The notes below the pieces were generated by a model, which was not told where the DNA came from, did no database searches, and saw only the letters and a program-made list of their open reading frames with translations. Positions 9,955 to 57,547 of a DNA stretch of 64,000 nucleotides are shown here, piece by piece; positions within the stretch are counted from its first letter, which is position 1, and the number at the start of each line of letters is the position of its first letter. The position numbers and the translations under genes were made by a program. Source of the stretch: Alphaproteobacteria bacterium. Lineage in GTDB: Bacteria; Pseudomonadota; Alphaproteobacteria; UBA7887. The stretch lies in contig CBDCGL010000011.1 in assembly GCA_965216755.1 (NCBI GenBank), positions 2,368,001 through 2,432,000 of the forward strand, read 5' to 3'.

Positions 9955-10114
9955 GGGCGGGCACTGCGGGTCGCGTTAGGCAGCATTAATCTCTGGGCCA
10001 ATACCGTCCACTCGGGAGCTGTTCCTGCCGGCGGTGTGCCGCCGGTACACGGCGCCCACCTGTACATACAGGTCTCAGTGGATTAACCCGCCGACGGTCA
10101 CCGTGGTCCCACCC
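9955..10114 (+). ncRNA. ssrS: 6S RNA
   Basis: Canonical position between zapA and ygfA; ~160-nt long hairpin whose 5' GGGCGGG pairs with the 3' CCCACCC; contains the alphaproteobacterial 6S-like segments GGGAGCTGT and GGCGCCCACCT; ends approximate. Confidence 0.8.
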
Positions 10115-42991: not shown

Positions 42992-43067
42992 GTCCCCATC
43001 GTCTAGCGGCCTAGGACATCGCCCTCTCACGGCGAAAACGGGGGTTCGATTCCCCCTGGGGACGCCA
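42992..43067 (+). tRNA. tRNA-Glu (anticodon CTC)
   Basis: 76-nt cloverleaf GTCCCCA...TGGGGAC-G-CCA; anticodon arm TCGCC-CT-CTC-AC-GGCGA; GGTTCGATTCC T-arm. Confidence 0.97.
43051..43067 (+). repeat. attL core (tRNA 3' end)
   Basis: TCCCCCTGGGGACGCCA, identical to 57531-57547. Confidence 0.93.
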
Positions 43068-43085
43068 ATTTTCTAAAGCGTTATA

Positions 43086-43098
43086 AATCAACGATTTA
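43086..43098 (+). promoter_or_regulatory. IHF-binding consensus next to attL
   Basis: AATCAACGATTTA matches WATCAANNNNTTR. Confidence 0.55.
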
Positions 43099-43127
43099 GA
43101 AACCAGTTTCCTGCCAAAATCCCTCTT

Positions 43128-43153
43128 AGTCTGTGCTCCGAGTCTGTGCTCCG
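43128..43153 (+). repeat. Integrase arm-type site (13-bp tandem)
   Basis: AGTCTGTGCTCCG twice; 23 bp identical to 57444-57466. Confidence 0.8.
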
Positions 43154-43176
43154 AGAGCACTGCACAGAAGGGAGTT

Positions 43177-44691
43177 TTGGCCATCACCCAATATCTGAGT
43201 CGGCGGAACGGCGGCGGCTACTTCTATCAGCGTCGAGTGCCGAAGGACCTGCGGTATCGCCGTGACGTGTTCAAAAGCCAATTCATTGAAGTCTACTTAG
43301 GCACCTCAGACAGGGCCGTGGCCAAGCGCAAGGTGTCCGCCATCAATGAGCAGTGGGAACGGACGTTCGACGCCATGCGGCGCGGTGATGCGATCACGGC
43401 GGAAACGATAGAACGGATCAGGTTGGCCGCCCAACTCAGAGCGTACAAGGCGATGGTGGCCGATCCTATCGACGGCCCAGGCCGGATAGCCGACGACCTT
43501 GAGCGGTTCTTGCCCGATATTGAAGCCGACACGAAACGGTACCTGGTACGTGCCGGGCTCGACCCGAACGACGAACGCAATAAGGCCGCCGCCATGCGGG
43601 CGATCTATATCGGCACCATGAACGCACAGGTGTTTTTCGAGAAGGGAGTCGAGCCGCCACCGGTTCCGGCGTATGACCCGTTGGTGTTCGATACCCCGCC
43701 CGACGGCCTCACCATCATGGAAGCGGCGGAGGCATACGAGAAGGCGGCGGACGTTGCCACGTCGGAGAAGACGCGCAAACAGTTGAAACAGTCGGCTCGG
43801 CTGTTTGCCGATCACTGCGGCAAGGACAAGCCGGTGGCGGCGATCACCGGACGAAACGCGGTGGCGTTCCTCGATAGGCTGGCGAAGATCAATCCCGATT
43901 ACCGACGTGATCCCAAGTCGGCTGAATTGACGCTAACGCAGCTTGAGGAGTCGTATCCCGCTGTAGACGGAAAGGGATTGTCCGCCGCGACCTTGAACCG
44001 TCACGCCATGAACATGCGCGTGCTGATCAACTGGCTGATCCGCCGCCACGAATTACCCGAGGAGCACCGAAACCCGTTCGACCGAAAGTCGCGGAAGGTG
44101 AAGGCGGACGGATATGAGCCCATGTCCGACATCGAGATTGCCACGCTGCTACATGGTGAACCGCTGGCCCGTTCCTTTGGTCGAAATTTTGGAGAATGCA
44201 TCGGCTGGCTGGTTGCGCTCGGAGCCTACACCGGGGCCAGGGCTGGCGAGTTGTGCGCGCTGACCAAAGACGACGTGCGCAAGAAGGACGGCGTTCACTA
44301 TCTGGCGATCTGCCAGGGCAAAACCGAGGCTGCCGCGCGCGTCATTCCGATACACCCGGAGTTGGTCAAGGCGGGATTCATCGAATACGTCAAGACGTGC
44401 CAAGACTCGTTGTTCGGTATCACCGGGAAATATCTCGCGAAACGATTCCCAGACTACCGCCGAAAGCATGGTGTGGACCGACCCGGCCTAGTGTTTCATT
44501 CGTTGCGCAAGTCCTTCGTCACGTCCTTCGAAGAAGCCGAGGTGCCCAGCGATACCGTTGCGCTCCTGGTAGGCCACAAGTCCGGGCGATCCTTCACCTT
44601 CTCGGTGTACTCCCCGCATGGGCCGACGCTTAAGAAGCTGGCGGCTGCCGTGGACAAGATCATCTACAAGACCGTGAAGCTGGCGCGATAG
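43177..44691 (+). CDS. Tyrosine recombinase/integrase with a DUF6538-like N-terminus
   Basis: YFYQRRVPKDL N-terminus; catalytic R (TGARAGE), K (GKT), HxxR (FHSLR), GH and Y (VYS). Confidence 0.93.
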   Translation: MAITQYLSRRNGGGYFYQRRVPKDLRYRRDVFKSQFIEVYLGTSDRAVAKRKVSAINEQWERTFDAMRRGDAITAETIERIRLAAQLRAYKAMVADPIDGPGRIADDLERFLPDIEADTKRYLVRAGLDPNDERNKAAAMRAIYIGTMNAQVFFEKGVEPPPVPAYDPLVFDTPPDGLTIMEAAEAYEKAADVATSEKTRKQLKQSARLFADHCGKDKPVAAITGRNAVAFLDRLAKINPDYRRDPKSAELTLTQLEESYPAVDGKGLSAATLNRHAMNMRVLINWLIRRHELPEEHRNPFDRKSRKVKADGYEPMSDIEIATLLHGEPLARSFGRNFGECIGWLVALGAYTGARAGELCALTKDDVRKKDGVHYLAICQGKTEAAARVIPIHPELVKAGFIEYVKTCQDSLFGITGKYLAKRFPDYRRKHGVDRPGLVFHSLRKSFVTSFEEAEVPSDTVALLVGHKSGRSFTFSVYSPHGPTLKKLAAAVDKIIYKTVKLAR

Positions 44692-44865
44692 GTCGCCCAA
44701 CCAAGCGGACCTCCGCCCCACCGCCGCCGTGGTCATAGGTTTAATCATGTATTTCAGTTAGTTACGGCGAAAGTTACTCGAAAACACCCCGTAACCCACT
44801 GAAATCAATAGAGAAGCCCTTGACCAGAACGGCGGTCTAAGTCATTGTTTTTATTGATATTTTAC

Positions 44866-44894
44866 TTGACACCTGGCCTGGCTTGTGGTATGGT
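44866..44894 (+). promoter_or_regulatory. Strong sigma70 promoter
   Basis: TTGACA-17 bp-TATGGT with extended -10 TG and an AT-rich upstream tract. Confidence 0.75.
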
Positions 44895-44911
44895 TCGCGT
44901 ATCATTGGAAT

Positions 44912-44986
44912 CCCGATGTAGCTCAGTTGGCAGAGCACTCCCGTTCGGGGGAGAGGCCGGAGGTTCGAAACCTCCCATCGGTATCA
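44912..44986 (+). ncRNA. tRNA-like RNA / pseudo-tRNA with a 6-nt anticodon loop
   Basis: CCCGATG-TA-GCTC AGTTGGCA GAGC-A-CTCCC GTTCGG GGGAG-AGGCC-GGAGG TTCGAAA CCTCC-CATCGGT-A-TCA. Confidence 0.8.
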
Positions 44987-45131
44987 GCCTTCAATTGATG
45001 TAGCCACGGCTGAACGCTGAACAGCGTCACAGATACGGGCTGCGGATGAAGCGCATCTTGCGCCAGATATCTGCGGCCCGTTTTGCATTTGGCCGCCTCC
45101 ATTTCTGGCGCGCAGACATGGAGGAAGAACG

Positions 45132-45590
45132 ATGCAGCATGATCTTTATTCGCCACGCGAGGCAGCAGATTACTGCGGCCTTTCGCTCAGCAAGTTCAAT
45201 CAGCTTCACAGTGCTGGTACCGGGCCGCGCTATAGCAGGCTCGGAACCGAAAAGACCGCGCGTCTTGTATTTCAGCGGAAGGACCTGGATAGGTGGCTGA
45301 ATGGACGCGGCGCGGACACCGTCGCGCGGGCAAAGAGGTACCGGGAGCTGCGGCGGGCCGTTGAACGGGCGACAGCCGAGAGGAAAAAGACGCACGAGGC
45401 CGAAAGCCGTTTTCGTAAGCAGCTTTCAGAAATTATTTCAGGCGCGCCTCACTTCGGAATTGATGACCTTCGTGGCCTTATGACGCGTTCGGGTTACACG
45501 ACCATTCGCGGCATTCCCGCCGATCAGCGCGACAAGTTCCTTACGGCGCTGGTTGACGCAGCCATGTCGGGAGGGTCCGACAATGACTGA
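45132..45590 (+). CDS. AlpA/excisionase-like HTH protein with a C-terminal extension
   Basis: YSPREAADYCGLS..GTGPRYSRLG..FQRKDLDRWL; GGAGG RBS. Confidence 0.8.
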   Translation: MQHDLYSPREAADYCGLSLSKFNQLHSAGTGPRYSRLGTEKTARLVFQRKDLDRWLNGRGADTVARAKRYRELRRAVERATAERKKTHEAESRFRKQLSEIISGAPHFGIDDLRGLMTRSGYTTIRGIPADQRDKFLTALVDAAMSGGSDND

Positions 45591-47628
45591 GAACAAGTCG
45601 CGCCTCGATATGGCGCAGTGGTTCGCGGAGAAGGGCATCTCTGTCTTCATGTGCGAACCGAACAGCAAGCGGCCCCTCGACGGCTATAGTTGGTATCTCC
45701 GGCAGAGCACCGACGCAGACACGATTGCCGGATGGTTCGATCAGGTGCCGGACGCGAATTTTGGCTGTCATTGGGGTGCCAATTATGTGGCAATCGACCT
45801 GGATATCAAGCCACAGCATAACGGCGTGCGTGAGTTCGAGAAAATTTGCGCCGAGCACGGCGTTGACAACTTTCTGTTGGAACTCGACACCCTCATTGTG
45901 CAAACACCCAGCGGCGGATACCACCTCGTATTCCAGGCTCCATTCCCGTGCGCCAATACCAACAGCTTCCCGGAAGGCATCGATGTGCGCGGTGTGGTCG
46001 GATACACCGTGGGAGCAGGCAGCGAAGACAGCCGTGGCGAATGGCGGATCATCAGCGATGCAGAGATTGCGTCGTTGCCTGAGTGGCTGACAGGCTACTT
46101 GGAGGAACCGGGTCGCAAGAACCCGAACCATGACGTGCCAGTCGTCGAACTCGATCTCGACGAGAACGTAGAGTACGCGCTGGGATGGCTGCGCGACCGC
46201 GAACCCGCCTTGCAGGGACATAATGGTGACGATCACACCTACGAAACAATCCAGTTCCTTCGCGACTTTGGTTTGAGCCAGGACAAGATTTTCGAGACGT
46301 TGAACGTCGAATGGAATGGCCGTTGTGATCCGCCATGGGGTCACGAGGAGTTGTTGGCGAAGATCAAGAATGCCTGGGCCTACGGGCAGAACCGTCCGGG
46401 CGTTAAGAGCCCAACGTGGAGGATGCAGCGGATCAATCGGGCGCACGGTGGCTGGTCCGACTACATCGCCACGCACTATCCCCGGCTTGCCGTAGATAAC
46501 ACTGCGCACAATCTGGCGCTGGCCGTGGACGCTAACGATATTCCTGAAAACAATCCCGTTCCAACGCACCGTCGCAGCTTCAAGCCTCGCAGCGAAGCAG
46601 AACAGGATGCGCAGCCCGATCCAGAATGGCTGATTAAGGGCGTATTGCAGAAGGAAACGCTCGCGCTGTTTTATGGGCCGGAAAATTCCTTCAAGTCGTT
46701 TCTGGTTCTCGACATGGTGCTTTCAGCGGCGGCGGGCATACCATGGGCCAGCTTTGGCGGATGCGAAGATGCTGGAGGCTTTGCGCCTCGGAGGCCGTTG
46801 ATCACGGTTTACATTGCCGGGGAAGGATCGCACGGTATCGAGAAGCAGCGCAGGCCCGCATGGCGGCAGCATCGCGGCGTTACAGAACCTTTGCCATTCT
46901 ACACCGTGAATGAGATGCCTTTCTTCAAGAGCGCCGATGAAGTAGAGCGACTGATTTCCGAAATTAGGGAGGCCGAGATCGAGCCGGATATTATTGTGGT
47001 CGATACCGCAGCCCGCGCCATGCTCGACTTGGACGAAAACTCCGCCAAGGATACCGGCGTATTTGTTGCCGCGTGTGATCGGCTGAAGCGGGAATTTCGC
47101 TGTGCCGTGGTCGTAGTCCATCATTCAGGTAAGGACAACGCCAAGGGCTCGCGCGGCTCTACCAATCTGCCAGCTTCTTTCGATGCGCGCTTCATGGTGA
47201 CAGGCGACACCGGCTCATTGGTCGCGAAGATCAAGAATGAGAAGCAGAAGGACGGTGAACCATGGTCAATGGCGATCACCTTTCAGGGCGAGCAGGTCGC
47301 AACCAATCTCGGCAGGAACTCCCTCGTATTCAAACGCGTGACTCCGGGTGCCGCTAAGGCCAAGGAAACAGACCCCCGCCTCGATCTGGCCCTGGAGATT
47401 ATCTCAAAGTGCAAGGGCAAGATGCCGCTCAGCATGAACGCATTGGCCGAAGAAATGGCGCGCCGCTACGCCACCGAGGAATTGACCGATGGCGAGTTGG
47501 AGAGGGCCAAGGAAGGCATGAGGAACTACCTCAAGAAGGCGGTCATGGGCGAATTGGCTGCCTGCGCCCACAAGGCAGACAAGGCCAGGAACGCGCGGTG
47601 GGTATTCGAGGATCGGTCCGGGAGGTGA
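45583..47628 (+). CDS. Bifunctional primase-polymerase fused to an AAA_25 (RepA-like) helicase
   Basis: Prim-Pol motifs AIDLD, TPSGGYHLVF and IDVRG; helicase WLIKGVL, YGPENSFKS, IVVDT, VVHHSGKD and RGS. Confidence 0.9.
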   Translation: MTENKSRLDMAQWFAEKGISVFMCEPNSKRPLDGYSWYLRQSTDADTIAGWFDQVPDANFGCHWGANYVAIDLDIKPQHNGVREFEKICAEHGVDNFLLELDTLIVQTPSGGYHLVFQAPFPCANTNSFPEGIDVRGVVGYTVGAGSEDSRGEWRIISDAEIASLPEWLTGYLEEPGRKNPNHDVPVVELDLDENVEYALGWLRDREPALQGHNGDDHTYETIQFLRDFGLSQDKIFETLNVEWNGRCDPPWGHEELLAKIKNAWAYGQNRPGVKSPTWRMQRINRAHGGWSDYIATHYPRLAVDNTAHNLALAVDANDIPENNPVPTHRRSFKPRSEAEQDAQPDPEWLIKGVLQKETLALFYGPENSFKSFLVLDMVLSAAAGIPWASFGGCEDAGGFAPRRPLITVYIAGEGSHGIEKQRRPAWRQHRGVTEPLPFYTVNEMPFFKSADEVERLISEIREAEIEPDIIVVDTAARAMLDLDENSAKDTGVFVAACDRLKREFRCAVVVVHHSGKDNAKGSRGSTNLPASFDARFMVTGDTGSLVAKIKNEKQKDGEPWSMAITFQGEQVATNLGRNSLVFKRVTPGAAKAKETDPRLDLALEIISKCKGKMPLSMNALAEEMARRYATEELTDGELERAKEGMRNYLKKAVMGELAACAHKADKARNARWVFEDRSGR

Positions 47629-47673
47629 GGGACTGCATTGACCGGATTGGCGACGCATGGGTATAGGTCATAG

Positions 47674-48774
47674 ATGACAACACAAACTGTCCTCACATTG
47701 GACGCTAGGGACCACGTGATGCTCGAAGTCATGCGCGATTATTTCAACGTGCCCCCTGACCGCATGCAGCGAGAAATCCAGGGAATGCTCGCTAAGACCG
47801 TAGCTGTGTTATCTAGTAAAGGAATTAATTACAGCGACTTGAAAACCGCACTCGTGCCCGACCCGAAGAGACGGGAGATCGCACTGGTGTTTGATACGTA
47901 CGATATGAAGGAGTCATGGTATGGGCTTCCGATCCATGCCGCATTGATCCCTCTTTTCAACAAGCAGAGCAATCACAGCATACTTACCGGCGACTACACT
48001 GGTGGCAATGACCAGCAAGATCCGCTCTACGAAGCGTTTGTCGCAGATGTCCAGCTAGTTAGAAATGTTGATTGGCGACACAGCACCCAGTTCTACATCG
48101 TCTACATCAACAACCTGACTGACAAAATGGTCGAGACGTTCCACAACGGTCTGTTGAATTTCGCGCCTTACGTCGGGTTTGCGGATACGACTTTCGCGTC
48201 CCGCTTCAAATTTTATCTCTCAGCAAAGCTCGTCAATTTGTGCATCAAGCATCGGCGAATCATCTTGATGGGCCACGAGGACGATGTGGACAATAATGAA
48301 GACACAAATATGCACGGCTACCCTTGGGAAGATCACGGATATACATGCAGAAGTCTCCAGGGTATGTACTTCGGAGTTCTACTTTCCTATAAAATCGAAC
48401 GACCGGTTTTCGAGGGATTTGAAGTGGACAGCGAGTTCTCGATTAACGCAGTGCACCCCAATCCATTGCCGTTGTCTGATTTCGAGATTCGGATTGATGA
48501 GAGCAAATTCGGCTACCTAACTTCCGAAAAGGCCGGAACTCTAAAGCGAATGGGACTGCTTGACGGCGATCTCTCCGACCTGAAGAAACTCGTGGCCCAA
48601 AAAATATCGTCTAATTACATCTACAACATGACGCACGACGAAAGGCACAACACGACCAAGTTCGATATTATTCTAGAAGTGCATCCGACTGACGGTTCAT
48701 CGCCACTTCGCGTCCTAGTGGCACTTGAGTACATTCCGAAAGATAAGTGCCTTCGTCTAATAACGCTTTATTGA
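47674..48774 (+). CDS. Hypothetical cargo protein with a DUF6883-like C-terminal domain
   Basis: 366-aa ORF, visibly more AT-rich than its flanks; C-terminal IDESKFGYL...KAGTLKRMG...TKFDI...RLITLY pattern. Confidence 0.7.
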   Translation: MTTQTVLTLDARDHVMLEVMRDYFNVPPDRMQREIQGMLAKTVAVLSSKGINYSDLKTALVPDPKRREIALVFDTYDMKESWYGLPIHAALIPLFNKQSNHSILTGDYTGGNDQQDPLYEAFVADVQLVRNVDWRHSTQFYIVYINNLTDKMVETFHNGLLNFAPYVGFADTTFASRFKFYLSAKLVNLCIKHRRIILMGHEDDVDNNEDTNMHGYPWEDHGYTCRSLQGMYFGVLLSYKIERPVFEGFEVDSEFSINAVHPNPLPLSDFEIRIDESKFGYLTSEKAGTLKRMGLLDGDLSDLKKLVAQKISSNYIYNMTHDERHNTTKFDIILEVHPTDGSSPLRVLVALEYIPKDKCLRLITLY

Positions 48775-48829
48775 ATGTGCGGAGTTTACGTGGAGTCGCC
48801 CGCGTCTCATGGCAGCTATTTTTCTTGCT

Positions 48830-48993
48830 TACCAACGGTTGGTAGCCAGCAATTTACCAACGCTACCAACATTGCCATAAGTCATTGATTTCGCTGTTGG
48901 TAAGTTACCAACGAAATCTACCAACCGTGGCGTCCTGGTTGGTTGGTAGGTACCCCCTCCTATAGGGGTACCAACTACCAACGCCATACCAAG
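48830..48993. repeat. Iteron cluster, probable replication origin
   Basis: TACCAAC 7 times forward and 3 times reverse; IHF consensus on the minus strand at 48878-48890; GGTACCCC/GGGGTACC inverted repeat. Confidence 0.8.
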
Positions 48994-49106
48994 GCCAAGG
49001 GATCATCCTGGCCATAAGGATTCTCCGAAGCGGCCTGTGGCCCCGAAATTGGCCCCATGAAATTCGTCCCACGCGCGCGCGTGACTCCCCGTCATCATGA
49101 CCGTGA

Positions 49107-49823
49107 TCATGCTGCTTGAACCTTCACCGTCGCGTCGTCCAACTGAAGCCGTTCCCGTAGCCGCCGAACAGCAGTGGCCGTCCATGCCCCACCCTTCACC
49201 GACGACTCGCCGCGCCGGCTCAAAGTCCGCGCGATCTGACAGTTGCCCATACCCCTGGCCAGCATATCCGAAATCTCCCCCCTCCATGCTTCGGCCCTAG
49301 CATCAGCCGCCCTAGATTTCCCCGCCAGAGCCGCTGTGTTGCCATTGGCCCTGATATGCTCCACCAAGGCCGCTCCGCCGTCCGGGTTGCCCAGGCGTTG
49401 CCCTCTTGCCTTGGCGACCTTCAACGCGGCTTTGGTGCGCTCGCTAATAAGACCAGCCTCAAGCTCTGCCACGGCTGCCATGGACGTGAGTAGAAACTTT
49501 CCCTGCGGTCCCGAAACTTGCGGCAGATCGCAGAACCGAACTTCAACGCCGCTGTCTAGTATGGTCAGAAGAAAATGTGCGCTACGGGCCAACCTGTCGA
49601 GCTTCGCTACCACAAGCGTTGCGCCGGTACGACGACAGTGGTCCAACGCCCTGCCGAGTTCCTGCCGGTCATCACGTTTGCCGCTTTCGGTTTCAGTGTA
49701 GCTTGCAACGATATCAGCATCCGGGCCTAGGTGTTGCTTCACAGCTTCACGTTGCGCAGCCAAACCTAAACCGGACTTGCCTTGTCGGTCGGTTGAAACT
49801 CGATAGTACATGATAGCTTTCAT
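49107..49823 (-). CDS. Serine recombinase (resolvase family)
   Basis: YYRVSTDRQG, ESGK..RQEL, VAKLDRLAR and ISERTKAAL motifs; ATG 49823 after a GGAGA RBS. Confidence 0.92.
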   Translation of the reverse strand: MKAIMYYRVSTDRQGKSGLGLAAQREAVKQHLGPDADIVASYTETESGKRDDRQELGRALDHCRRTGATLVVAKLDRLARSAHFLLTILDSGVEVRFCDLPQVSGPQGKFLLTSMAAVAELEAGLISERTKAALKVAKARGQRLGNPDGGAALVEHIRANGNTAALAGKSRAADARAEAWRGEISDMLARGMGNCQIARTLSRRGESSVKGGAWTATAVRRLRERLQLDDATVKVQAA

Positions 49824-49881
49824 GGTCTGTCTCCTACTTGGATGGAAAGATTTTCTGCGGCTTGGCTGTACGCCGATCACG

Positions 49882-49916
49882 GCAGCTTCGATGTACGCAG
49901 CAGCTTCGATGTACGC
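49882..49916. repeat. 17-bp direct repeat upstream of the resolvase
   Basis: GCAGCTTCGATGTACGC at 49882-49898 and 49900-49916. Confidence 0.85.
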
Positions 49917-50576
49917 CAGCCGAGGCAGTTTGACTGCACGGCCTGAACTTTGCTGCGATGGTTGGCGTTGATGTTCTGGTCATGCCCGGTTCAATTTCGA
50001 GAGTCTTTGTGCGACTGGGCTAGGCGGCTGGCTCAGAGTCCGTTGGCGGCCAAGATCGCGAGCGCACGGCCACAGCAGAATGCCCGCCGGTGAAAAGGCC
50101 TGTGGCGCGTGACGCTGAAGCTGGCGGAAACCTGCGGTTCCATAGCCTTTTCCTTGCGAATACTTGTGTCTGTGTCGTTTTGCAAAACGAGCATTTCGTT
50201 GTCTGACACCACAAAATATAGACGAAAATCATTACCGAGTCGTTAATATCGAAGCATTGAAGAAGAAAAAAATGAGAGAAACCAAAGACTAGCGAAGATC
50301 TCCCCCTAGGTCGATCAAACTCGGAATACAACATCTGGGGCCTGGCATCCCGACATGTCCATGTATTCTCCATTTTTCTTCATTTTTATTCGACCTATCA
50401 GATTTTTTGGGGCCTATTTTACTTGTAGTCCTATGCCCCGGATCATTTTCTACTTGGATCGTTTTGTCATCCAAAATTACAGTTCATTATTTTTGGGGTT
50501 TGCTCCCGAAAAGCATAGATTCACCGCCGCCAAAGTCAAAATTCCAGTTTTGCAGTGCGGTAAACTTGGCGGCGAT

Positions 50577-50604
50577 TTGACAGATATTTGACACGTGATA
50601 CCAT
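50577..50604 (+). promoter_or_regulatory. Candidate sigma70 promoter for the terS-like operon
   Basis: TTGACA-16 bp-TACCAT with TGn; a second TTGACA at 50588. Confidence 0.45.
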
Positions 50605-50729
50605 TAACTTGGCTTCATTACATAAATCTACGCCTAGAAAGCCCTTGGAAGCCCGCACAGAGGCTCTGCCGGTGGCGGCCAAATCCTAGGCCGGGATGCC
50701 GGGCGGGCGCTCACGGGGCTCTGCAGGCC

Positions 50730-51389
50730 ATGGAGACACGAATTTTGGGAAAGCGCGGACCAGCGAAGAACAGTTTGGAAATGCCGATCACCGTGGAGCG
50801 GCGGAAGGTGTTTTTGGACGCCTTGCGGGAGACTGGCGTATGGGCGCACGCCTGCCGCGTGGCGAGCCCGCATTCGCCGTCCGACACTTCAAACCCGCCT
50901 TGTAGCTCCAGCTTCCGGGCCTTGGTTCGTAGGGACATTGAATTTGCCGCTGCCGTCGAAGACGCGATGGAAACAGCAAGGGCAAACGTCTTGCTCGAAA
51001 TTCAGCGCCGTGGGCAGGACGGCTGGGACGAAAAGGTTTTCCAGAAGGGAATGCAGGCCGTTGACGCGGATGGAAATCCAGCCGTCATTCGCAAGTATTC
51101 CGACAACCTCTTGTTGGCCCGTGCGCGTTCGATGATGCCAGAACTGTTCTCGGAAAAGCATCACCACGAACACACGGTAAAGCGTGCAATGGGTGCCCAC
51201 ACGTTCGTCTCCGAAGATATCCATTTGCTCGACCCGGATCAGCGCGCGGCTCTTACCGATATCTTGCTCACGATTCAGCGCCGCCGTGGCGAGGCCGATA
51301 GCGCCCTCGAATATCAGCCAGCGGAAACAATCGACGCCGATTTCGAGGAAGTCGAATACGCAGAATTTGATTTGGGTAGGGAGGATTAA
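50730..51389 (+). CDS. Terminase small subunit-like protein
   Basis: FLDALRETG..HACR..EFAAAVEDA..IQRRGQDG..VFQKG..RKYSDNLL..PELF pattern typical of TerS-like HTH proteins; start uncertain (50730 or 50781). Confidence 0.7.
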   Translation: METRILGKRGPAKNSLEMPITVERRKVFLDALRETGVWAHACRVASPHSPSDTSNPPCSSSFRALVRRDIEFAAAVEDAMETARANVLLEIQRRGQDGWDEKVFQKGMQAVDADGNPAVIRKYSDNLLLARARSMMPELFSEKHHHEHTVKRAMGAHTFVSEDIHLLDPDQRAALTDILLTIQRRRGEADSALEYQPAETIDADFEEVEYAEFDLGRED

Positions 51390-51394
51390 AACAA

Positions 51395-51634
51395 TTGGCT
51401 GACACGATGGATGCGACTGACCTTTTGTTGAGGGATTTGGCACTTAAGGATTCGGGATGGAGCCGGGTCGAAGGTCCGAACGGCTGTGCGTATTTCCCGG
51501 AAACGGCGAATGACGTTGATGCCTTTGACGCGCGCTGCATTGCTATGCACGAAAGCCAGAAGCCAATCGTCTTGGAGGAAAAGCCCGCCGTTACAGATTA
51601 CGCCGATTACATGCGGCTCAAGCGGGGAGATTAA
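51395..51634 (+). CDS. Small hypothetical protein
   Basis: ORF packed between terS-like and the next ORF; its stop overlaps the next ATG. Confidence 0.5.
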   Translation: MADTMDATDLLLRDLALKDSGWSRVEGPNGCAYFPETANDVDAFDARCIAMHESQKPIVLEEKPAVTDYADYMRLKRGD

Positions 51635-52131
51635 TGACGGTGCGCAGGCCAACTACATTGGCCGGTGACGCCGATTCCATTCTCGGCAATCTGCATAACG
51701 CCTCGGACATTGATGACCGGCCTATCACAGCTGAACGCCGGCTGTGGATGTCTGTGATCGCCAGGGCATGGCTGGACGCATTCGAAGCGAGCGATTGGTT
51801 CTTGAGGGCCAGCGAGTCGAAGTTGCGCCACCTCGATTTCGATCCCGCCATGGTCCGCCAGGAAGCGCGTAGGTGGCTGACCCTTGATTTCGGAGAATGG
51901 AAGTCCTACCGCGAAACCGTTTGCGATTTGGCGGGCGTTGACGAGCAGATGTTGCGGAATGCCGCTCGCTGTAGTCTCAATCTGGTGAAGGCGGACCAAC
52001 GGCCCACGGTAGAAATCGTCAATTTGGATACGATGTTCGCGGCGTTGCTGGACCGGGAAGGCGATGGAGAGGACTCCGACGAACTGGACGCGGCATTGGA
52101 GCGGCTGGCCCGTCTTGAGGTAGCAGCATAA
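51634..52131 (+). CDS. Hypothetical phage-type protein
   Basis: ERRLWMSVIARAWLD...EARRWL...VCDLAGVD pattern; GGGGAGA RBS. Confidence 0.7.
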   Translation: MTVRRPTTLAGDADSILGNLHNASDIDDRPITAERRLWMSVIARAWLDAFEASDWFLRASESKLRHLDFDPAMVRQEARRWLTLDFGEWKSYRETVCDLAGVDEQMLRNAARCSLNLVKADQRPTVEIVNLDTMFAALLDREGDGEDSDELDAALERLARLEVAA

Positions 52132-52284
52132 CTCATTGAATTTCGTTATTTTAAAGTGATATAGGTCAGTAATATTGACCAAAAACTTGACAAACTATGT
52201 AGCTGCCCGGAAAATGAAAATTCATCGTCATATTCCTCACAGCCGGGGCGCGGCGAGCGATTCAATGCTCCCGGTTTCTATCTT

Positions 52285-52453
52285 CTAGCGGTGCGATGCC
52301 GCTAGTCGTACTCGACGGCCAATGACGGCGTGATGCCAGAGGCCACCTGCGGCGGGATGCTGCGCCAATCCGACAATTGAAATCTGATCGCTTTGCCCGT
52401 GGTGGGCGGAGCTTTGTCTTGATCGCTGCCCGCGTGAGAGCGGACGGCACAGC
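52285..52453 (+). ncRNA. Structured leader with five hairpins carrying GNGR-type loops
   Basis: Loops GCGAT, GTGAT, GGGAT, GTGGT and GTGAGA, each closed by a GC-rich stem. Confidence 0.5.
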
Positions 52454-52460
52454 ATGAGGA

Positions 52461-53435
52461 ATGCAAAAAATGTCTACAGCTACATCGAAGATTCGTGCCG
52501 GACTCGACGCGCACGAACGCGCAAAGTCTGGCGGAACTTTCAATCTGTCCAATCTTGCTGGCGCACCTGCCAGTGTTTCCGACCTGAACGATCTCGCGAA
52601 CAAGGCGACCGCCAAGAGGGATCGCCTCAAGGTCCTGGCCGAGTCGATCAACGCTGCGGTCGAAAAGTACAAGACGCAGAAGACGGTGGAGTATGCCGAG
52701 CTTGGCCGCATTCGCGACGGCAATCTTGTCACCGATACTTTGGGCGAAACCCGCAGGCGGGCGATGCTCGAACGCGAAGTGGCGAAGTTCACTCGCGATG
52801 CCCGCAAGGTTTCGGCGGACGAACGTTCGCGGCTCTTGTCTGAGCTCCACGATATTACGTCAAAGATTGCCGCTGTCCGCGACTCCTGGTCGGACCCGGT
52901 TGCGGTCCTGATGCGTCGAACGCTCGCAGACGCCAAGCGCGGTGTCTATGCGCAGAACCTTGCATCCGCTGGCCCCGTGGCCGTCGAAGACGCATTGCGT
53001 GACGCGGTGATCGGCAGAAACGCAGCGTTGGCGGCGGCTGCGCTCGATAGGCTGTCGGCCATGTCAAAGGATCAGGCGAAGTCGGTTCGCTTCTCCAAGC
53101 GCGACGTAGCCGAAAGTCTGGTTGCAGAGGAGTGGACCAAGGCGCGCGCTTTAATCGCCATGGTGGACCTTGCGACCGAGGAGTCTGAACTTGCCCAGGC
53201 TCAGGCCGAAGGCAGCCGCGACACGGCCAAGATGCTTATGCGTGTTGGTCGGTTGCGTAACGAACTCAGTGCCCTCGTGCCCGAACCTGCATCCCTGCCG
53301 GATGATGCCAAGCCGAGCAACCCTAAGCCCGGCATCTTGTCGAGTGAGGATTGGGAAAAGAATCTGAACGCTCGCTACCCCGCCCTGCCGGTGCCGAACA
53401 ATGTGCAAGTGATTGGTGGAGGCGGCAATGAGTGA
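52461..53435 (+). CDS. Hypothetical alpha-helical/coiled-coil protein
   Basis: 324-aa Ala/Arg/Glu-rich ORF; no recognised motif. Confidence 0.75.
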   Translation: MQKMSTATSKIRAGLDAHERAKSGGTFNLSNLAGAPASVSDLNDLANKATAKRDRLKVLAESINAAVEKYKTQKTVEYAELGRIRDGNLVTDTLGETRRRAMLEREVAKFTRDARKVSADERSRLLSELHDITSKIAAVRDSWSDPVAVLMRRTLADAKRGVYAQNLASAGPVAVEDALRDAVIGRNAALAAAALDRLSAMSKDQAKSVRFSKRDVAESLVAEEWTKARALIAMVDLATEESELAQAQAEGSRDTAKMLMRVGRLRNELSALVPEPASLPDDAKPSNPKPGILSSEDWEKNLNARYPALPVPNNVQVIGGGGNE

Positions 53436-53658
53436 CCCCGATTTCACCCGTGATGATGTTCGGACTTGGCTCGCCCGTCGCCCCGGCACGTTCGAGCAGG
53501 ACTCGGAGCGGCGGTGCTGGCGCGCGGCGTGGGAGCATTTCAATGACGCCCACTATCCGGTGGGTCACGATGTTGAGTTCATGATGATCGTCGAGGATTT
53601 GGGATTTGGCGTGCGGCCCACAGCCTTGGGCGGATTCATTCTCGACAAGGTGACATGA
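53428..53658 (+). CDS. Small hypothetical protein
   Basis: ATG overlaps the previous stop; GGAGG RBS. Confidence 0.6.
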   Translation: MSDPDFTRDDVRTWLARRPGTFEQDSERRCWRAAWEHFNDAHYPVGHDVEFMMIVEDLGFGVRPTALGGFILDKVT

Positions 53659-54014
53659 GTTCGGCGGTGGGGATCACTAGCTCACTTCGCCGCCATGGGT
53701 GTCCGACTGGCGCTAGCGGTCGGACTCCCTCCAACTCCCCAAGTGGCGATATTGGGCGTGCTGATCGCATGGCCTACAGCGAGAGTGCGCGCAATGCTGC
53801 TGTGGCGAAGGCCGCCGACTAGACGGCTGCGCGGGCCGAACGTTTGGGAACGACTCCCGAGGCGATCCTGGAAGCGATCCAGGACGCGCATGGTTGCCGG
53901 AACAGATTGAGCGCGTGACGAGTCGCTATGTGCTGGAAGGAAGTCCGCCTCCATTGGAGGGCGTTCCGGCTTGGGTTGATAGGGAGATTGAGCGAAACGC
54001 GAGGCGATGGCGGC

Positions 54015-54884
54015 TTAGTAGTCGGGAGTCCAGTTACGTTGAATCTCGCGCAACTTCGCACGGTCAACTTTCCTTAGACCGAGACACAGCGACCAGAGTG
54101 GGAAGGACCAGTCATCTCGTATAGACCGGTTGCCTTTCTCATCATCGATGGCGAGTAGCCCCCTCGACTCCAAAGTTTCGAGAGTCTGCCAGTTCAACCC
54201 CTCCAATTCGTCCTTAGTAGTCTCCAGCTTTACCTCGACTGGTCGCCAGACTTCCGCAACAACAGCCAGTCCCTCATGCGTTGTCATCCCGGCTTGTTGC
54301 ATTGCGATGATCAGGCGAATCGCAGGTGACGTCCAATAGAAGGGCAAACGATCGATGATCGGGTGGTGCCAGTACCTTCCCGCTTCGTCGTTTCCTTCCC
54401 GAACATAGCCAACATAAAGATCGTCTTCTCTCCGCTGTGTGATGCGGTTTGGGAAAATCCAATCCACGTCTACCGGACCGTCAAGGTAATACTGCTCCCG
54501 TGCGTCATCTATGTGCCGCGTGATCTCAGCAAAGTTCGCGGGGCTCAATCCGGTAACGTCGACATAAATGCCCTTCGCTAAATGGCTGTAGAAGTAGCTT
54601 AGTGTCCGTGCTTTTTGCTTTGATTTCGCTGGTGGGCACCGCACGGCGTCAATGAGAATGAGAGCCTTAGCGGCTTCCTCCTCCGCAAGGTTGCCGATGA
54701 TCCTTGCGGCGTGGTGGTCGTCACTCTTACTTAGTTTCTGGGCTGCCGCGTCCAGGCGATTTGCGCACTCGACTATGAGAGACGTACCCTCAGCGACTTC
54801 CTTGAAAAGGTCAGCGTCCTTTAGCTGGCACAAATCCTTAATAGCGCGTTCCATCCGGCGTGATCCCAATGTGTGATTCGCCAC
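54015..54884 (-). CDS. AbiV-family (HEPN) abortive infection protein
   Basis: ANRLDAAAQKL...A...LAEEEAAK...FYSHLAK signature; start may be ATG 54854. Confidence 0.75.
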   Translation of the reverse strand: MANHTLGSRRMERAIKDLCQLKDADLFKEVAEGTSLIVECANRLDAAAQKLSKSDDHHAARIIGNLAEEEAAKALILIDAVRCPPAKSKQKARTLSYFYSHLAKGIYVDVTGLSPANFAEITRHIDDAREQYYLDGPVDVDWIFPNRITQRREDDLYVGYVREGNDEAGRYWHHPIIDRLPFYWTSPAIRLIIAMQQAGMTTHEGLAVVAEVWRPVEVKLETTKDELEGLNWQTLETLESRGLLAIDDEKGNRSIRDDWSFPLWSLCLGLRKVDRAKLREIQRNWTPDY

Positions 54885-55054
54885 GACGGCGTGCGGTCAT
54901 CTCAAGACGCCACGTCGTCAGCCCCTACATCGCAGCGATTTTGACTGGCGTCACCGCTTTGGCCTGAACTGCGTTGGCCGTTGCTTCTATACAGTCCATT
55001 CCAGGGCCCATTTAGGAAACTTGGCCCGTGTGACACTGCGCCGAAGTGATGGTC

Positions 55055-55576
55055 TCAATCTGACCATTGAAACTCCCTCGACTCATCTTCATCGACGAAA
55101 CTGTCTTTATCGAGGTTCTGGGTGTAGATGATGAGGTTTTTGCAGTCGTATCGCGCGGACGGCACAATTAAGCCGTCACAGCCCAGGTAATTTAGCGCAT
55201 CAGAAATCCCTTGGGTGCGCGAATAGTCTCGATTTTGATAGTCTGCTTGGCGTACACCGAGTTTTTCAAGGTCCTCGAAACTAAGTTCGACGACGCGCTT
55301 CAAGCGGACCTTTAGTTTCCAGTTTAGGGCCTTCCTGTCGGGCCGTTGCTCGAACAGCGACCAAAATGTTTCGAACTCTGCGTCAGCCCCTTCGGCCATG
55401 AACGACGTATTGAGGACTTCGAACTCGCTATCCGGACTATTCCAACGACCACGCTTTCCGTTACTACCTTGGAGGGGGCTCTTGTCAGCCCAGACAACTC
55501 GATTGGTGTCTCCCTCAAAGGGTCTTTGGGGGCAACTCTCTAGCTGCTCCAATAAGCCGGGATCGCGCTCCAACAT
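55055..55576 (-). CDS. RES domain toxin
   Basis: R (NRVV), GRWN, E (AEFE) and DGLIVPSAR...NLIIY motifs. Confidence 0.88.
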   Translation of the reverse strand: MLERDPGLLEQLESCPQRPFEGDTNRVVWADKSPLQGSNGKRGRWNSPDSEFEVLNTSFMAEGADAEFETFWSLFEQRPDRKALNWKLKVRLKRVVELSFEDLEKLGVRQADYQNRDYSRTQGISDALNYLGCDGLIVPSARYDCKNLIIYTQNLDKDSFVDEDESREFQWSD

Positions 55577-55594
55577 GTCCCGGTAGACCTAACG

Positions 55595-55972
55595 CTATGT
55601 GTATGTGGGATCAGCCATTGCCTGAATGGCTTCCAAGACCTCCTCAATTCGACCTTCCTGTATTAGATCAGCAGGCCGAAGGCCGTTAAAATACTTGTGC
55701 CTAGAATACAGCCAAGCGCGCGCAGTCTTTGGGTCGGAATAAAACTCTGAGAGTCGCTCCACGATGTACTCTAGATCAACAAGAAGGCTTTCCTTGTTTG
55801 GCCGGGGATAGGCACGACCTTGGTTCCACCGGGAAACAGTCTCAGGCGTGGTCCCGAGCATATTCGCGACATCGACCCCACGAATTGCCGCCCGCCTCTC
55901 TAAAAGTTCCAGTTTTTCCGCGACCACGTTTCTTTCCGTGACCGCATCCCTTTCCGCGACTGCATTTGACAT
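55595..55972 (-). CDS. Xre/MbcA/ParS-type antitoxin (HTH plus toxin-binding domain)
   Basis: DVANMLGTTPETVSRW HTH; ARAWL...FNGLRPADLI C-terminus. Confidence 0.88.
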   Translation of the reverse strand: MSNAVAERDAVTERNVVAEKLELLERRAAIRGVDVANMLGTTPETVSRWNQGRAYPRPNKESLLVDLEYIVERLSEFYSDPKTARAWLYSRHKYFNGLRPADLIQEGRIEEVLEAIQAMADPTYT

Positions 55973-56015
55973 TGTTAGCCTCCGATGGTTCCGCTTTCTA
56001 CAGGTGAGAACTCAA

Positions 56016-57299: not shown

Positions 57300-57343
57300 C
57301 TACGGTCTCCACGGCATTATGCCATGACATATTGATCGACAGA

Positions 57344-57377
57344 AACATAGACGAAAAGATTGACGTTGTCAATGACA
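57344..57377 (-). promoter_or_regulatory. sigma70 promoter overlapped by palindromic operators
   Basis: Minus-strand TTGACA-17 bp-TATGTT; palindromes TTGAC-GTT-GTCAA (57360-57372) and TGTCA-A-TGACA (57367-57377). Confidence 0.65.
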
Positions 57378-57443
57378 TTCTTGGTGGGGCGTAGAGACCG
57401 GTCACGTCTACGGAATGCGACGCGATAAAGGTAAACAGGGTTG

Positions 57444-57466
57444 AGTCTGTGCTCCGAGTCTGTGCT
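57444..57466 (+). repeat. Integrase arm-type site (right end)
   Basis: AGTCTGTGCTCCGAGTCTGTGCT, identical to 43128-43150. Confidence 0.8.
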
Positions 57467-57530
57467 ACCATTGGTCAAAAAGGCGCAGAAATCAGGGATT
57501 TTAGGCGTTTCAGGGTCCTACCGGGTCCCC

Positions 57531-57547
57531 TCCCCCTGGGGACGCCA
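57531..57547 (+). repeat. attR core (duplicated tRNA-Glu 3' end)
   Basis: TCCCCCTGGGGACGCCA. Confidence 0.93.

What the first reader, a model, noticed from the sequence alone, without database searches (positions are those of the whole stretch)
44866..44986. Strongly promoted tRNA mimic with a 6-nt anticodon loop heading the satellite's early operon
Seen: a near-consensus promoter (TTGACA-17-TATGGT with extended -10) fires ~12 nt before a cloverleaf. The D-arm (GCTC/GAGC), T-arm (GGAGG TTCGAAA CCTCC), 5-bp anticodon stem and 6 of 7 acceptor pairs are intact. The anticodon loop is only 6 nt (GTTCGG), position 1:72 is a C-T mismatch, and the end reads TCA rather than CCA. It is not a copy of the host tRNA-Glu. 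Intact stems with a broken decoding loop suggest selection on shape rather than decoding. Established: satellite P4 and phage P1 place RNase P-processed regulatory RNAs (CI, C4) in early operons that control immunity. Inference: this may be a tRNA-derived immunity or processing RNA, or a decoy for anticodon nucleases. The segment CGTTCGG could pair (with one G-U) with CTGAACG at 45010-45016.
Basis: partly seen in the sequence, partly recalled or inferred. Interest (0 to 1): 0.8.

Follow-up and report, generated by a model that had tools for sequence, protein, structure and literature searches.

The report
Non-decoding tRNA-shaped gene in a satellite-like island
A small mobile island that looks like a phage satellite carries its own promoter-driven gene for an RNA with an intact tRNA shape but a shortened, unreadable anticodon loop, and because no relative of it could be found, its role (regulator, processing module or dead cargo tRNA) remains a hypothesis.

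Summary
Window 44912-44983 scores 50.8 bits against Rfam tRNA, and ARAGORN calls it an undetermined tRNA with a 2-base anticodon. It has a 6-nt loop (GTTCGG), a C1:U72 mismatch and a TCA tail. A TTGACA-17-TATGGT promoter with an extended -10 lies 18 nt upstream. Logan contigs of three runs (two samples, one study) show no difference or indel there, so an assembly indel is unlikely.

The gene lies in a 14.5-kb island at tRNA-Glu(CTC), bounded by 17-nt att repeats. The island carries an integrase, an AlpA-like regulator, a PrimPol-helicase and a TerS-like protein, so it is PICI-like.

New points:
- The scaffold is closest to metagenomic tRNA-Thr(GGU) genes (61 of 72), with three compensatory stem changes.
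- A strong terminator-like hairpin and a second hairpin that buries the alpA ribosome-binding site and AUG separate the gene from alpA.
- The proposed loop/CTGAACG pairing is at chance level.
- No Rfam family other than tRNA reaches E<=0.1 there, so nothing C4/CI-like is seen.

No homologue was found in any collection searched, and no RNA run was listed. Conservation and expression are therefore untested. Best reading: a self-contained unit for a non-decoding tRNA-shaped RNA, insulated from alpA. A dead cargo tRNA is nearly as likely.

The parts
42992..43067 (+). Host tRNA-Glu(CTC), the integration target. Its last 17 nt (43051-43067) are the attL core.
   Evidence: ARAGORN; Rfam 60.7 bits; 17-nt direct repeat D7
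43128..43150 (+). 23-nt repeat (AGTCTGTGCTCCGAGTCTGTGCT), also present at 57444-57466. Probably recombinase arm-type sites at both island ends.
   Evidence: the repeat finder D4, 100% identical copies. The role is inferred.
43177..44691 (+). Tyrosine integrase (DUF6538 plus Phage_integrase). The start codon is uncertain.
   Evidence: Pfam 5.1e-13 and 8.6e-11; phrog_1 7.5e-39
44720..44836 (.). Imperfect 48-nt inverted repeat (71% complementary, 21 nt between the arms) between the integrase gene and the promoter. Possibly a protein-binding or end-of-int structure.
   Evidence: the repeat finder I1. Function not tested.
44866..44894 (+). Sigma-70-type promoter: TTGACA, 17 nt, TATGGT, with an extended -10 TG. 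The predicted start is near 44901.
   Evidence: Promoter scan, 10 of 12 matches, the only site in 1.2 kb. The start site is inferred.
44912..44986 (+). tRNA-shaped gene with a 6-nt anticodon loop GTTCGG (44943-44948), a C1:U72 mismatch, A73 and a TCA tail.
   Evidence: Rfam tRNA 50.8 bits; ARAGORN undetermined; cloverleaf is the minimum-energy fold; identical in three run assemblies
45010..45027 (+). Tandem CTGAAC(G) at 45010 and 45017, partly inside a small hairpin (ACGCTG-AA-CAGCGT). These are the proposed pairing partners of the loop.
   Evidence: Direct reading; the pairing is at chance level
45035..45091 (+). Terminator-like element: a 14-pair stem carrying an inner hairpin (45035-45081), then UUUGCAUUU. 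Two G-U pairs make it specific to the + strand.
   Evidence: Folds. The + strand gives z=-2.7 against -1.0 for the - strand. It is not picked up by the simple scan, whose loop limit is 3-8 nt.
45083..45137 (+). Second hairpin that pairs CCUCCAU (45096-45102) with AUGGAGG (the Shine-Dalgarno sequence, 45120-45124) and UGCAUU with the start-codon region. It sequesters the alpA translation start.
   Evidence: The fold of 45030-45140 gives -54.7 kcal/mol, z=-5.97, with 0 of 200 shuffles as good; inverted repeat I3
45132..45590 (+). AlpA-like HTH_17 regulator/excisionase, 152 aa.
   Evidence: Pfam HTH_17 1.6e-5, 25.5 bits, just under the cut-off of 27; phrog_66 5.4e-7; no relative in the 5.8-billion-protein word search
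45583..47628 (+). PrimPol plus AAA_25 primase-helicase. Its ATG overlaps the alpA stop (ATGACTGA).
   Evidence: Pfam 1.5e-25 and 5.2e-34; start read
50595..51389 (+). Terminase small subunit-like protein.
   Evidence: phrog_4044 2.3e-23
57531..57547 (+). attR core, a repeat of the last 17 nt of tRNA-Glu. The island therefore spans 43051-57547 (about 14.5 kb).
   Evidence: the repeat finder D7

Best explanation
The gene is a self-contained unit (promoter, tRNA-shaped RNA, terminator) carried by a PICI-like satellite island.

The RNA is built on a tRNA-Thr(GGU)-type scaffold. It keeps the L-shape but cannot decode, because the loop has 6 nt. It has also lost the marks an aminoacyl-tRNA synthetase would need: the anticodon and the 1:72 pair.

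I infer the following.
- It is transcribed constitutively from the near-consensus promoter.
- It is cut at its 5' end like any pre-tRNA by RNase P.
- It accumulates as a small stable RNA.
- Most transcription stops at the hairpin and U stretch at 45035-45091.
- Any read-through message has the alpA ribosome-binding site and AUG locked in a second hairpin, so AlpA, and with it the primase-helicase, stay off.
- Induction would then act after initiation, by anti-termination or by opening the hairpin, using polymerases supplied by the strong promoter. The tRNA-shaped module would serve as the processing point that separates the stable RNA from the message.

Shown: the anatomy, the folds and the island's gene content.
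Inferred: transcription, processing, termination, and any link to helper-phage induction.
For: - The tRNA fold is intact and far above chance: 50.8 bits, E=6e-8; the cloverleaf is the minimum-energy fold; all core nucleotides are present.
- There are three departures from a working host tRNA. The loop has 6 nt. Position 1:72 is C:U. The tail is TCA, whereas 49 of 49 host tRNAs encode CCA.
- The loop length is not an assembly artefact.
- The nearest relatives found are metagenomic tRNA-Thr(GGU) genes, 61 of 72 identical. Three stem pairs are changed on both sides and still pair (4:69 C-G to G-C, 51:63 C-G to A-U, 52:62 A-U to G-C). The loop is rewritten from TTGGTAA to GTTCGG. Change is thus concentrated in the decoding parts and compensated in the stems.
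- Only one promoter-like site lies within 1.2 kb, and it sits directly upstream.
- The leader 45030-45140 is exceptionally structured (z=-5.97). It holds a + strand-specific terminator-like hairpin and a hairpin over the Shine-Dalgarno sequence and AUG.
- The island is PICI-like, with int, an AlpA-like gene, a PrimPol-helicase, a TerS-like gene, att repeats and a size of 14.5 kb.
Against: - There is no homologue of the RNA, the leader or the flanking proteins, so there is no conservation or covariation evidence at all.
- The comparison with tRNA-Thr is biased. The search pattern forced 23 of the 72 positions to be identical, and the true ancestor is unknown.
- The compensated stems could predate a recent inactivation.
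- A promoter followed by a tRNA and a terminator is also exactly what an ordinary, or dead, cargo tRNA gene looks like.
- The U stretch after the hairpin is interrupted (UUUGCAUUU), and the simple terminator scan reported nothing.
- Among short-arm host tRNAs, every Rfam score is at least 60.7 bits. The 50.8 bits here is therefore low.
Confidence: 0.45

Rival explanations
1. It is a dead cargo tRNA. The island once carried a working tRNA, of Thr type or retargeted. Mutations in the loop, at 1:72 and in the CCA have inactivated it. It is still transcribed but has no role. The terminator and the alpA hairpin are ordinary features unrelated to it.
For: - Base rate: undetermined and pseudo tRNAs are common on mobile elements. 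One other 6-nt-loop tRNA turned up among the 132 pattern matches, inside a 27-tRNA phage-like array.
- Three separate defects (loop, 1:72, CCA) are what decay looks like.
- Its Rfam score is below that of every short-arm host tRNA.
- No conservation can be shown, because the gene is an orphan.
Against: - All 20 remaining stem pairs and all core nucleotides are intact.
- Differences from the nearest relatives are compensated in the stems and concentrated in the loop.
- The near-consensus promoter is intact.
- The loop differs from any normal 7-nt loop by more than one deletion: G32 is unusual, and TTGGTAA to GTTCGG needs several changes.
Confidence: 0.35
2. It is a P4-CI/P1-C4-like immunity RNA built on a full tRNA scaffold. 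The processed RNA would pair through its loop with the tandem CUGAAC sites in the nascent leader and enforce termination before alpA.
For: - The layout is the same as in P4: a promoter, a small structured RNA, then the regulator and primase operon.
- P4-like satellites use an antisense-RNA circuit involving CI/C4 and seqA/IsrK (passage read in PMC3632133).
- The whole 6-nt loop is complementary, with one G-U, to two adjacent sites just upstream of the terminator. Two or more such sites occur in only 2% of shuffles.
- The loop contains a U-U-C-G (YUNR-type) motif, as antisense recognition loops do. That motif rule is recalled, not tested here.
Against: - The two sites are one tandem duplication, so they are not independent.
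- A single 7-mer site occurs in 7.7% of shuffles, and a site for any 7-mer of the arm occurs in 28%.
- No Rfam family other than tRNA reaches E<=0.1 in 44700-45200.
- There are no homologues in which to test co-variation of loop and target.
Confidence: 0.1
3. It is a working tRNA with unusual decoding. Examples would be a frameshift-promoting or suppressor tRNA, or a tRNA switched on and off by slippage in the five-G run (five Gs give a 6-nt loop, six Gs a 7-nt loop GUUCGGG with anticodon UCG).
For: - The body, promoter and terminator are intact.
- The loop ends in a run of five Gs, where slippage is plausible.
Against: - The 6-nt loop shows no length variant in three assemblies, although contigs hide minor variants.
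- alpA and the primase gene are joined by an ordinary ATGA overlap that needs no frameshift.
- The C1:U72 mismatch, the missing CCA and C20 fit neither Thr, Pro nor Arg identity rules. Those rules are recalled from E. coli work, not tested here.
- G32 and G38 would be very unusual in the 7-nt version.
Confidence: 0.05
4. It is a decoy or antidote RNA. The tRNA shape would bind a tRNA-targeting nuclease, either of the helper or host or the island's own AbiV-like HEPN protein, without being a substrate, because the loop is altered.
For: - The shape is kept while the loop is changed.
- The island carries an AbiV-like HEPN protein at 54015-54884 (Pfam 2e-5, 25.2 bits, under the cut-off of 27.1).
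Against: - The HEPN gene lies 9 kb away on the other strand.
- No PADLOC system was recognised in the cargo; the only hit is a weak RmrA match at 2.3e-4.
- There is no evidence of any nuclease specificity.
Confidence: 0.05

Closest known systems
P4 CI RNA and P1/P7 C4 RNA, the small processed immunity RNAs of satellite P4 and phage P1
   Same: Both are small structured RNAs encoded at the start of the operon that leads to the regulator and primase genes of a satellite. P4-like prophages use CI/C4 and seqA/IsrK antisense control (passage read in PMC3632133). RNase P processing of CI and C4 is recalled from the older literature, not read here.
   Different: - This RNA is a complete cloverleaf that matches the tRNA model, not the C4 fold.
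- No Rfam family other than tRNA reaches E<=0.1 here.
- Its complementarity to leader sites is at chance level.
- A terminator-like hairpin directly follows it.
tRNA-Other of Bacillus cereus, a pseudo-tRNA beside a genomic island
   Same: Both are tRNA-shaped genes associated with a genomic island. tRNA-Other does not function in translation yet has cellular effects when deleted (abstract of PMC3399842, seen in the listing).
   Different: - tRNA-Other flanks the island as an integration-site tRNA in a Firmicute.
- This gene lies inside the island, between int and alpA. It has its own near-consensus promoter and a 6-nt loop.
- No phenotype is known here.
Cargo tRNA genes and tRNA arrays of phages, including occasional undetermined or pseudo tRNAs
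   Same: Both are promoter-driven tRNA genes on a mobile element. A 27-tRNA phage-like metagenomic array (L111) holds one tRNA with the same anticodon stem and a 6-nt loop, GTTTGA.
   Different: - This is a single gene on a 14.5-kb satellite-like island, not an array.
- It lacks an encoded CCA and has a 1:72 mismatch.
- It sits directly in front of the locked alpA start.
Gram-negative PICI satellites such as EcCICFT073 (int-alpA-pri/rep-terS islands)
   Same: The island has the same gene order and 4 of the 5 core functions. [quoted passage not shown]
   Different: - No capsid-morphogenesis gene was recognised.
- The passages read in those papers mention no RNA gene between int and alpA. The word 'tRNA' has 0 occurrences in the main text of PMC10085698.
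- The proteins have no close relatives in any collection searched.

Membership tests
tRNA (Rfam RF00005) | Cloverleaf that scores above the family's gathering score | tested here: met
   50.8 bits against a gathering score of 29, over the full model 1-71
tRNA (functional, decoding) | Seven-membered anticodon loop with U33, a three-base anticodon and a purine at 37 | tested here: not met
   The loop is GTTCGG, 6 nt. ARAGORN reports a two-base anticodon. The sequence is identical in three run assemblies.
tRNA (functional, decoding) | Paired 1:72 and a 3' CCA, as in the host's own tRNA genes | tested here: not met
   Position 1:72 is C1:U72 and the tail is TCA. 49 of 49 host tRNAs encode CCA.
tRNA (functional, decoding) | Aminoacylation | not testable with these tools
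   This needs acid-gel or periodate assays. The host has a PolyA_pol-family nucleotidyltransferase that could add CCA. No RNase Z reaches the family cut-off.
C4/CI and IsrK antisense RNAs of P1, P7 and P4-like elements | Match to the families' covariance models | tested here: not met
   An Rfam scan of 44700-45200 up to E=1 returns only tRNA and two weak microRNA matches. The whole window at gathering threshold returns 6S RNA and two tRNAs.
C4/CI and IsrK antisense RNAs of P1, P7 and P4-like elements | Complementarity between the RNA's loop and target sites in the same leader | tested here: inconclusive
   Sites lie at 45010 (7 nt) and 45017 (6 nt). Shuffles give 7.7% for a 7-mer, 28% for any arm 7-mer and 2% for two 6-mers, and the two sites are a tandem duplication.
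C4/CI and IsrK antisense RNAs of P1, P7 and P4-like elements | Processing by RNase P from the operon leader, and control of termination | not testable with these tools
   No RNA run was listed.
PICI-type phage satellite (five core functions as listed in PMC10085698) | Integrase and att repeats at a specific site | tested here: met
   Integrase; 17-nt repeats at 43051 and 57531
PICI-type phage satellite | AlpA/MerR/Stl-type regulator next to int | tested here: met
   HTH_17 1.6e-5, 25.5 bits, just under the Pfam cut-off of 27; phrog_66 'excisionase and transcriptional regulator' 5.4e-7. This is a weak but consistent match.
PICI-type phage satellite | Primase-replicase | tested here: met
   Prim-Pol 1.5e-25 and AAA_25 5.2e-34
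PICI-type phage satellite | Small terminase subunit | tested here: met
   phrog_4044 2.3e-23 at 50595-51389
PICI-type phage satellite | Capsid-morphogenesis gene | tested here: not met
   No head or capsid family was hit among the 10 proteins scanned with PHROGs and Pfam. Several ORFs remain unassigned.
PICI-type phage satellite | Induction and packaging by a helper phage | not testable with these tools
   Needs experiments.
Intrinsic (Rho-independent) terminator | GC-rich hairpin directly followed by a U stretch | tested here: inconclusive
   A 14-pair stem at 45035-45081 is followed by UUUGCAUUU. The + strand gives z=-2.7 and the - strand -1.0. The simple scan found 0 sites because its loop limit is 3-8 nt. 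The U stretch is interrupted.
T-box leader | Match to the T-box covariance model | tested here: not met
   No T-box match at E<=1 in 44700-45200

The most novel reading that the evidence does not exclude
A phage satellite has converted a complete tRNA into its switch RNA. The abundant, RNase-P-cut, non-decoding tRNA mimic would act on the nascent leader, through its 6-nt YUNR-type loop and the tandem CUGAAC sites, to enforce termination before alpA. Helper infection would remove or titrate it and so turn on the satellite. This would be an immunity system that works like P4 CI but is built independently on a full tRNA scaffold in a PICI-like element.
Probability: 0.1. Interest if true: 0.75.

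Novelty: new variant of a known kind. Interest (0 to 1): 0.4.

Why it matters
How Gram-negative PICI-type satellites keep their activator AlpA silent, and how a helper phage turns it on, is reported as unresolved in the passages I read (PMC6092414). This island offers a concrete, testable layout: a strong promoter, a tRNA-shaped RNA, a terminator-like hairpin and a hairpin that hides the alpA start.

If the tRNA-shaped RNA has a role, it would be a second, independent case of a satellite using a small processed RNA at the head of its replication operon. It would also be a rare bacterial example of a whole tRNA fold kept for something other than decoding.

If it has no role, it is one more dead cargo tRNA, and the interest shifts to the leader structures alone.

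Tried and rejected
**Homologue searches. All were blank, so no covariation test was possible.**
- DNA of 44860-45131 against the 23 genomes of the family, own genome included, hit only ordinary tRNA-Pro, tRNA-Thr and tRNA-Phe genes in 6 relatives.
- The AlpA-like protein in the order (the same 23 genomes) matched only itself.
- The PrimPol-helicase in 401 genomes of the class gave 9 other genomes plus an own-genome paralogue on contig C6. All are at or below 40% identity. None of these 10 loci has a tRNA within 1.5 kb.
- The integrase in 301 class genomes at E<=1e-40 matched only itself. That threshold was strict.
- Scans of genome contigs with the PrimPol-helicase and with the integrase found no relative.
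- Scans of viral contigs with the same two proteins and with four DNA patterns found nothing.
- blastn of 44700-45600 against plasmids and phages gave no match.
- The word-based protein search with the AlpA-like protein found only itself.
- The loop GTTCGG in a generic tRNA frame across 401 class genomes gave 2 non-tRNA hits, against 4 hits for the reversed control.

**Metagenome scan.** Of the 132 matches read, 122 are tRNA-Thr(GGT), 8 are tRNA-Ile(GAT), 1 has the loop ATGGTAA, and 1 has a 6-nt loop. This gave ancestry, not homologues.

**Expression.** No RNA holder was listed for this stretch.

**Run X5.** This run, from a second study, holds only two 151-nt pieces (44725-44875 and 45141-45291). 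Both are identical to the window, and neither covers the gene.

**An idea dropped.** I suspected that the host lacks tRNA-Thr(GGU) and that the island gene might be linked to this. The host gene is in fact present but split by an insertion of about 234 nt. It is also of a different sequence type from the island gene (51-56 of 75 identical to the family's tRNA-Thr).

**Other ideas rejected.**
- A T-box-like reading of the leader: no Rfam match.
- A frameshift between alpA and the primase gene that an odd tRNA might serve: the junction is an ordinary ATGA overlap.

**Earlier notes and literature.**
- Four look-ups of this scan's earlier notes gave nothing that bears on the finding.
- Literature searches found no paper holding both 'tRNA-like' and 'phage satellite'.
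- None holds any of the five '6-nt/six-nucleotide anticodon loop' phrasings searched.
- Supplementary files of the papers could not be opened, so satellite gene tables there may list RNA genes I could not see.

Full report
**1. What is there**

The window holds two tRNA-type matches: tRNA-Glu(CTC) at 42992-43067 and a second one at 44912-44983.

The second matches the whole Rfam tRNA model at 50.8 bits (gathering score 29, E=6.1e-8 for the window). ARAGORN can give it only a two-base anticodon.

- The acceptor stem has 6 of 7 pairs, with C1 opposite U72.
- The D, anticodon and T stems are perfect.
- The anticodon loop is GTTCGG, 6 nt (44943-44948).
- A73 is followed by TCA.
- The nucleotides that build the tRNA core are all present: U8, A14, G15:C48, G18, G19, A21, G53:C61 and the T-loop UUC..A58.

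The isolated RNA folds into the cloverleaf as its minimum-energy structure (-31.6 kcal/mol; 0 of 200 shuffles as good).

The promoter TTGACA-17-TATGGT, with TG before the -10, is the only sigma-70-like site in 44400-45600. It would start transcription about 10-12 nt before C1.

**2. Is the short loop an artefact?**

Logan contigs of three runs cover the gene with no different letter and no gap: X2 and X3 over 43010-47700, and X1 over 44401-45537. No indel is listed.

The runs come from two samples of one study and may include the source of the window, so they are not fully independent. Even so, an assembly indel in the five-G run is unlikely.

A run from a second study (X5) holds two identical 151-nt pieces on either side of the gene but not the gene itself. 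No RNA run was listed.

**3. Context**

The last 17 nt of tRNA-Glu recur at 57531-57547, and a 23-nt repeat lies just inside both ends. The island is therefore 43051-57547, about 14.5 kb.

It encodes:
- a tyrosine integrase;
- an AlpA-like HTH_17 protein;
- a PrimPol plus AAA_25 primase-helicase;
- a resolvase;
- a terminase small-subunit-like protein;
- an AbiV-like HEPN protein;
- several unassigned ORFs.

That is four of the five PICI core functions listed in PMC10085698 (passages read). No capsid-morphogenesis gene was recognised. 'Satellite' is therefore a reasonable label, but it is unproven.

**4. Ancestry**

Within its own genome the gene is closest to tRNA-Pro(CGG), 59 identical positions in the alignment with that 77-nt tRNA.

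The metagenome pattern scan showed that its anticodon stem and variable arm are those of a common tRNA-Thr(GGU) type (122 of 132 matches). The best of these share 61 of 72 positions with it.

Relative to them:
- Three stem pairs are changed on both sides and still pair (4:69, 51:63, 52:62).
- Pair 1:72 went from G-C to C:U.
- The loop went from TTGGTAA to GTTCGG.

Change is thus compensated in the stems and concentrated in the parts that matter for decoding and for recognition by threonyl-tRNA synthetase. The E. coli identity rules (G1-C72, C2-G71, G35, U36) are recalled, not tested here.

Two caveats apply. The pattern forced 23 of the 72 positions to be identical, and the real ancestor is unknown.

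**5. What lies between the gene and alpA**

The stretch 45030-45140 is unusually structured (-54.7 kcal/mol, z=-5.97).

It forms a 14-pair stem with an inner hairpin (45035-45081), followed by UUUGCAUUU. Two G-U pairs make this structure specific to the + strand: z is -2.7 on that strand against -1.0 on the other.

A second hairpin pairs CCUCCAU with the alpA Shine-Dalgarno sequence (GGAGG, 45120-45124) and covers the AUG at 45132.

No other promoter-like site precedes alpA.

The tRNA-shaped gene therefore looks like a unit of its own (promoter, RNA, terminator). Any transcript that reads through has a locked alpA start. The primase gene is coupled to alpA by an ATGA overlap.

**6. The proposed pairing**

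The loop is complementary, with one G-U, to CTGAACG at 45010 and to CTGAAC at 45017. The numbers are:
- If any number of G-U pairs is allowed, such sites are expected by chance.
- With at most one G-U, a 7-mer site occurs in 7.7% of 5000 shuffled leaders.
- A site for any 7-mer of the arm occurs in 28% of 2000 shuffles.
- Two 6-mer sites occur in 2%, but the two sites here are one tandem duplication.

This is not evidence for pairing. It does not exclude pairing either.

**7. Comparison with known systems**

Rfam gives only tRNA here; no other family reaches E<=0.1. The RNA is therefore not a member of the C4/CI or IsrK families that P4-like satellites use (passage read in PMC3632133).

The position in front of the regulator and primase genes is analogous to P4. 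A pseudo-tRNA with cellular effects beside an island is known in Bacillus cereus (abstract of PMC3399842).

**8. Homologues**

None was found. The searches are listed under Tried and rejected.

The island's proteins have only distant relatives, at or below 40% identity. None of the 10 distant primase loci has a tRNA nearby. The decisive comparative test could therefore not be run.

**9. Verdict**

The best-supported reading (0.45) is a self-contained gene for a non-decoding, tRNA-Thr-derived, tRNA-shaped RNA. It is probably RNase-P-processed. A terminator-like hairpin and a start-site hairpin insulate it from alpA and keep the satellite's activator off.

An inactivated cargo tRNA is nearly as likely (0.35). 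The P4-CI-like antisense reading (0.10), an unusual decoding tRNA (0.05) and a nuclease decoy (0.05) remain possible.

The finding is of moderate interest. The anatomy is clean and testable, but it is a single orphan locus with no evidence of conservation or expression.

Noticed in passing
Own genome outside the window: G000:C11:4581915-4582225 (locus L152): The host's only tRNA-Thr(GGU) is split in the anticodon loop by an insertion of about 234 nt. Nucleotides 1-37 lie at 4582225-4582189 and nucleotides 36-75 at 4581954-4581915, on the minus strand just upstream of murA, as in relatives. The insertion gives a sub-threshold Rfam group I intron match (21.9 bits against a gathering score of 50, E=0.0022). 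ARAGORN and Rfam tRNA both miss the gene, although ACC makes up 43.5% of Thr codons. In the family, 17 of 22 relatives have one uninterrupted copy by the pattern used.
   Followed up: partly
L111 5289-5362 (-), metagenome contig: A phage-like array of 27 tRNA genes contains one tRNA with the same anticodon stem (CTCCC/GGGAG) and a 6-nt loop, GTTTGA. That loop matches GTTCGG at 4 of 6 positions. This tRNA has a normal acceptor stem and an encoded CCA. The array also holds two CUA-anticodon tRNAs, which ARAGORN labels Pyl.
   Followed up: partly
window 44720-44836: A 48-nt imperfect inverted repeat (71% complementary, 21-nt spacer) lies in an AT-richer stretch between the integrase stop and the promoter. 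It might be a binding region or the end of the int transcript.
   Followed up: no
window 49857-49916: Three 17-nt direct repeats (GCAGCTTCGATGTACGC type) lie at the start of the resolvase gene on the minus strand. They could be a res site or iterons of the island's origin.
   Followed up: no
window 61704-62243: Five tandem copies of a 108-nt unit (60-74% identical to the first copy) lie outside the island.
   Followed up: no
window 9958-10113: 6S/SsrS RNA gene, 61 bits, on the + strand.
   Followed up: no
Own genome G000:C6:3885-5525 (-) and the small contigs C1-C10: A second PrimPol-helicase, 31% identical, lies on a 12.3-kb contig with no tRNA nearby. ARAGORN also makes two doubtful calls that Rfam does not confirm: an 86-nt 'tRNA' with a 2-base anticodon on C10, and a 95-nt 'Val' at C11:202542.
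   Followed up: partly
window 44915-44922 and 44997-45004: The 8-mer GATGTAGC, which is part of the 5' acceptor strand and positions 8-11, is repeated 11 nt after the gene's TCA tail. In the fold of the whole leader, the 3' acceptor strand pairs with this downstream copy instead of forming the acceptor stem. Whether this alternative structure matters is unknown.
   Followed up: no
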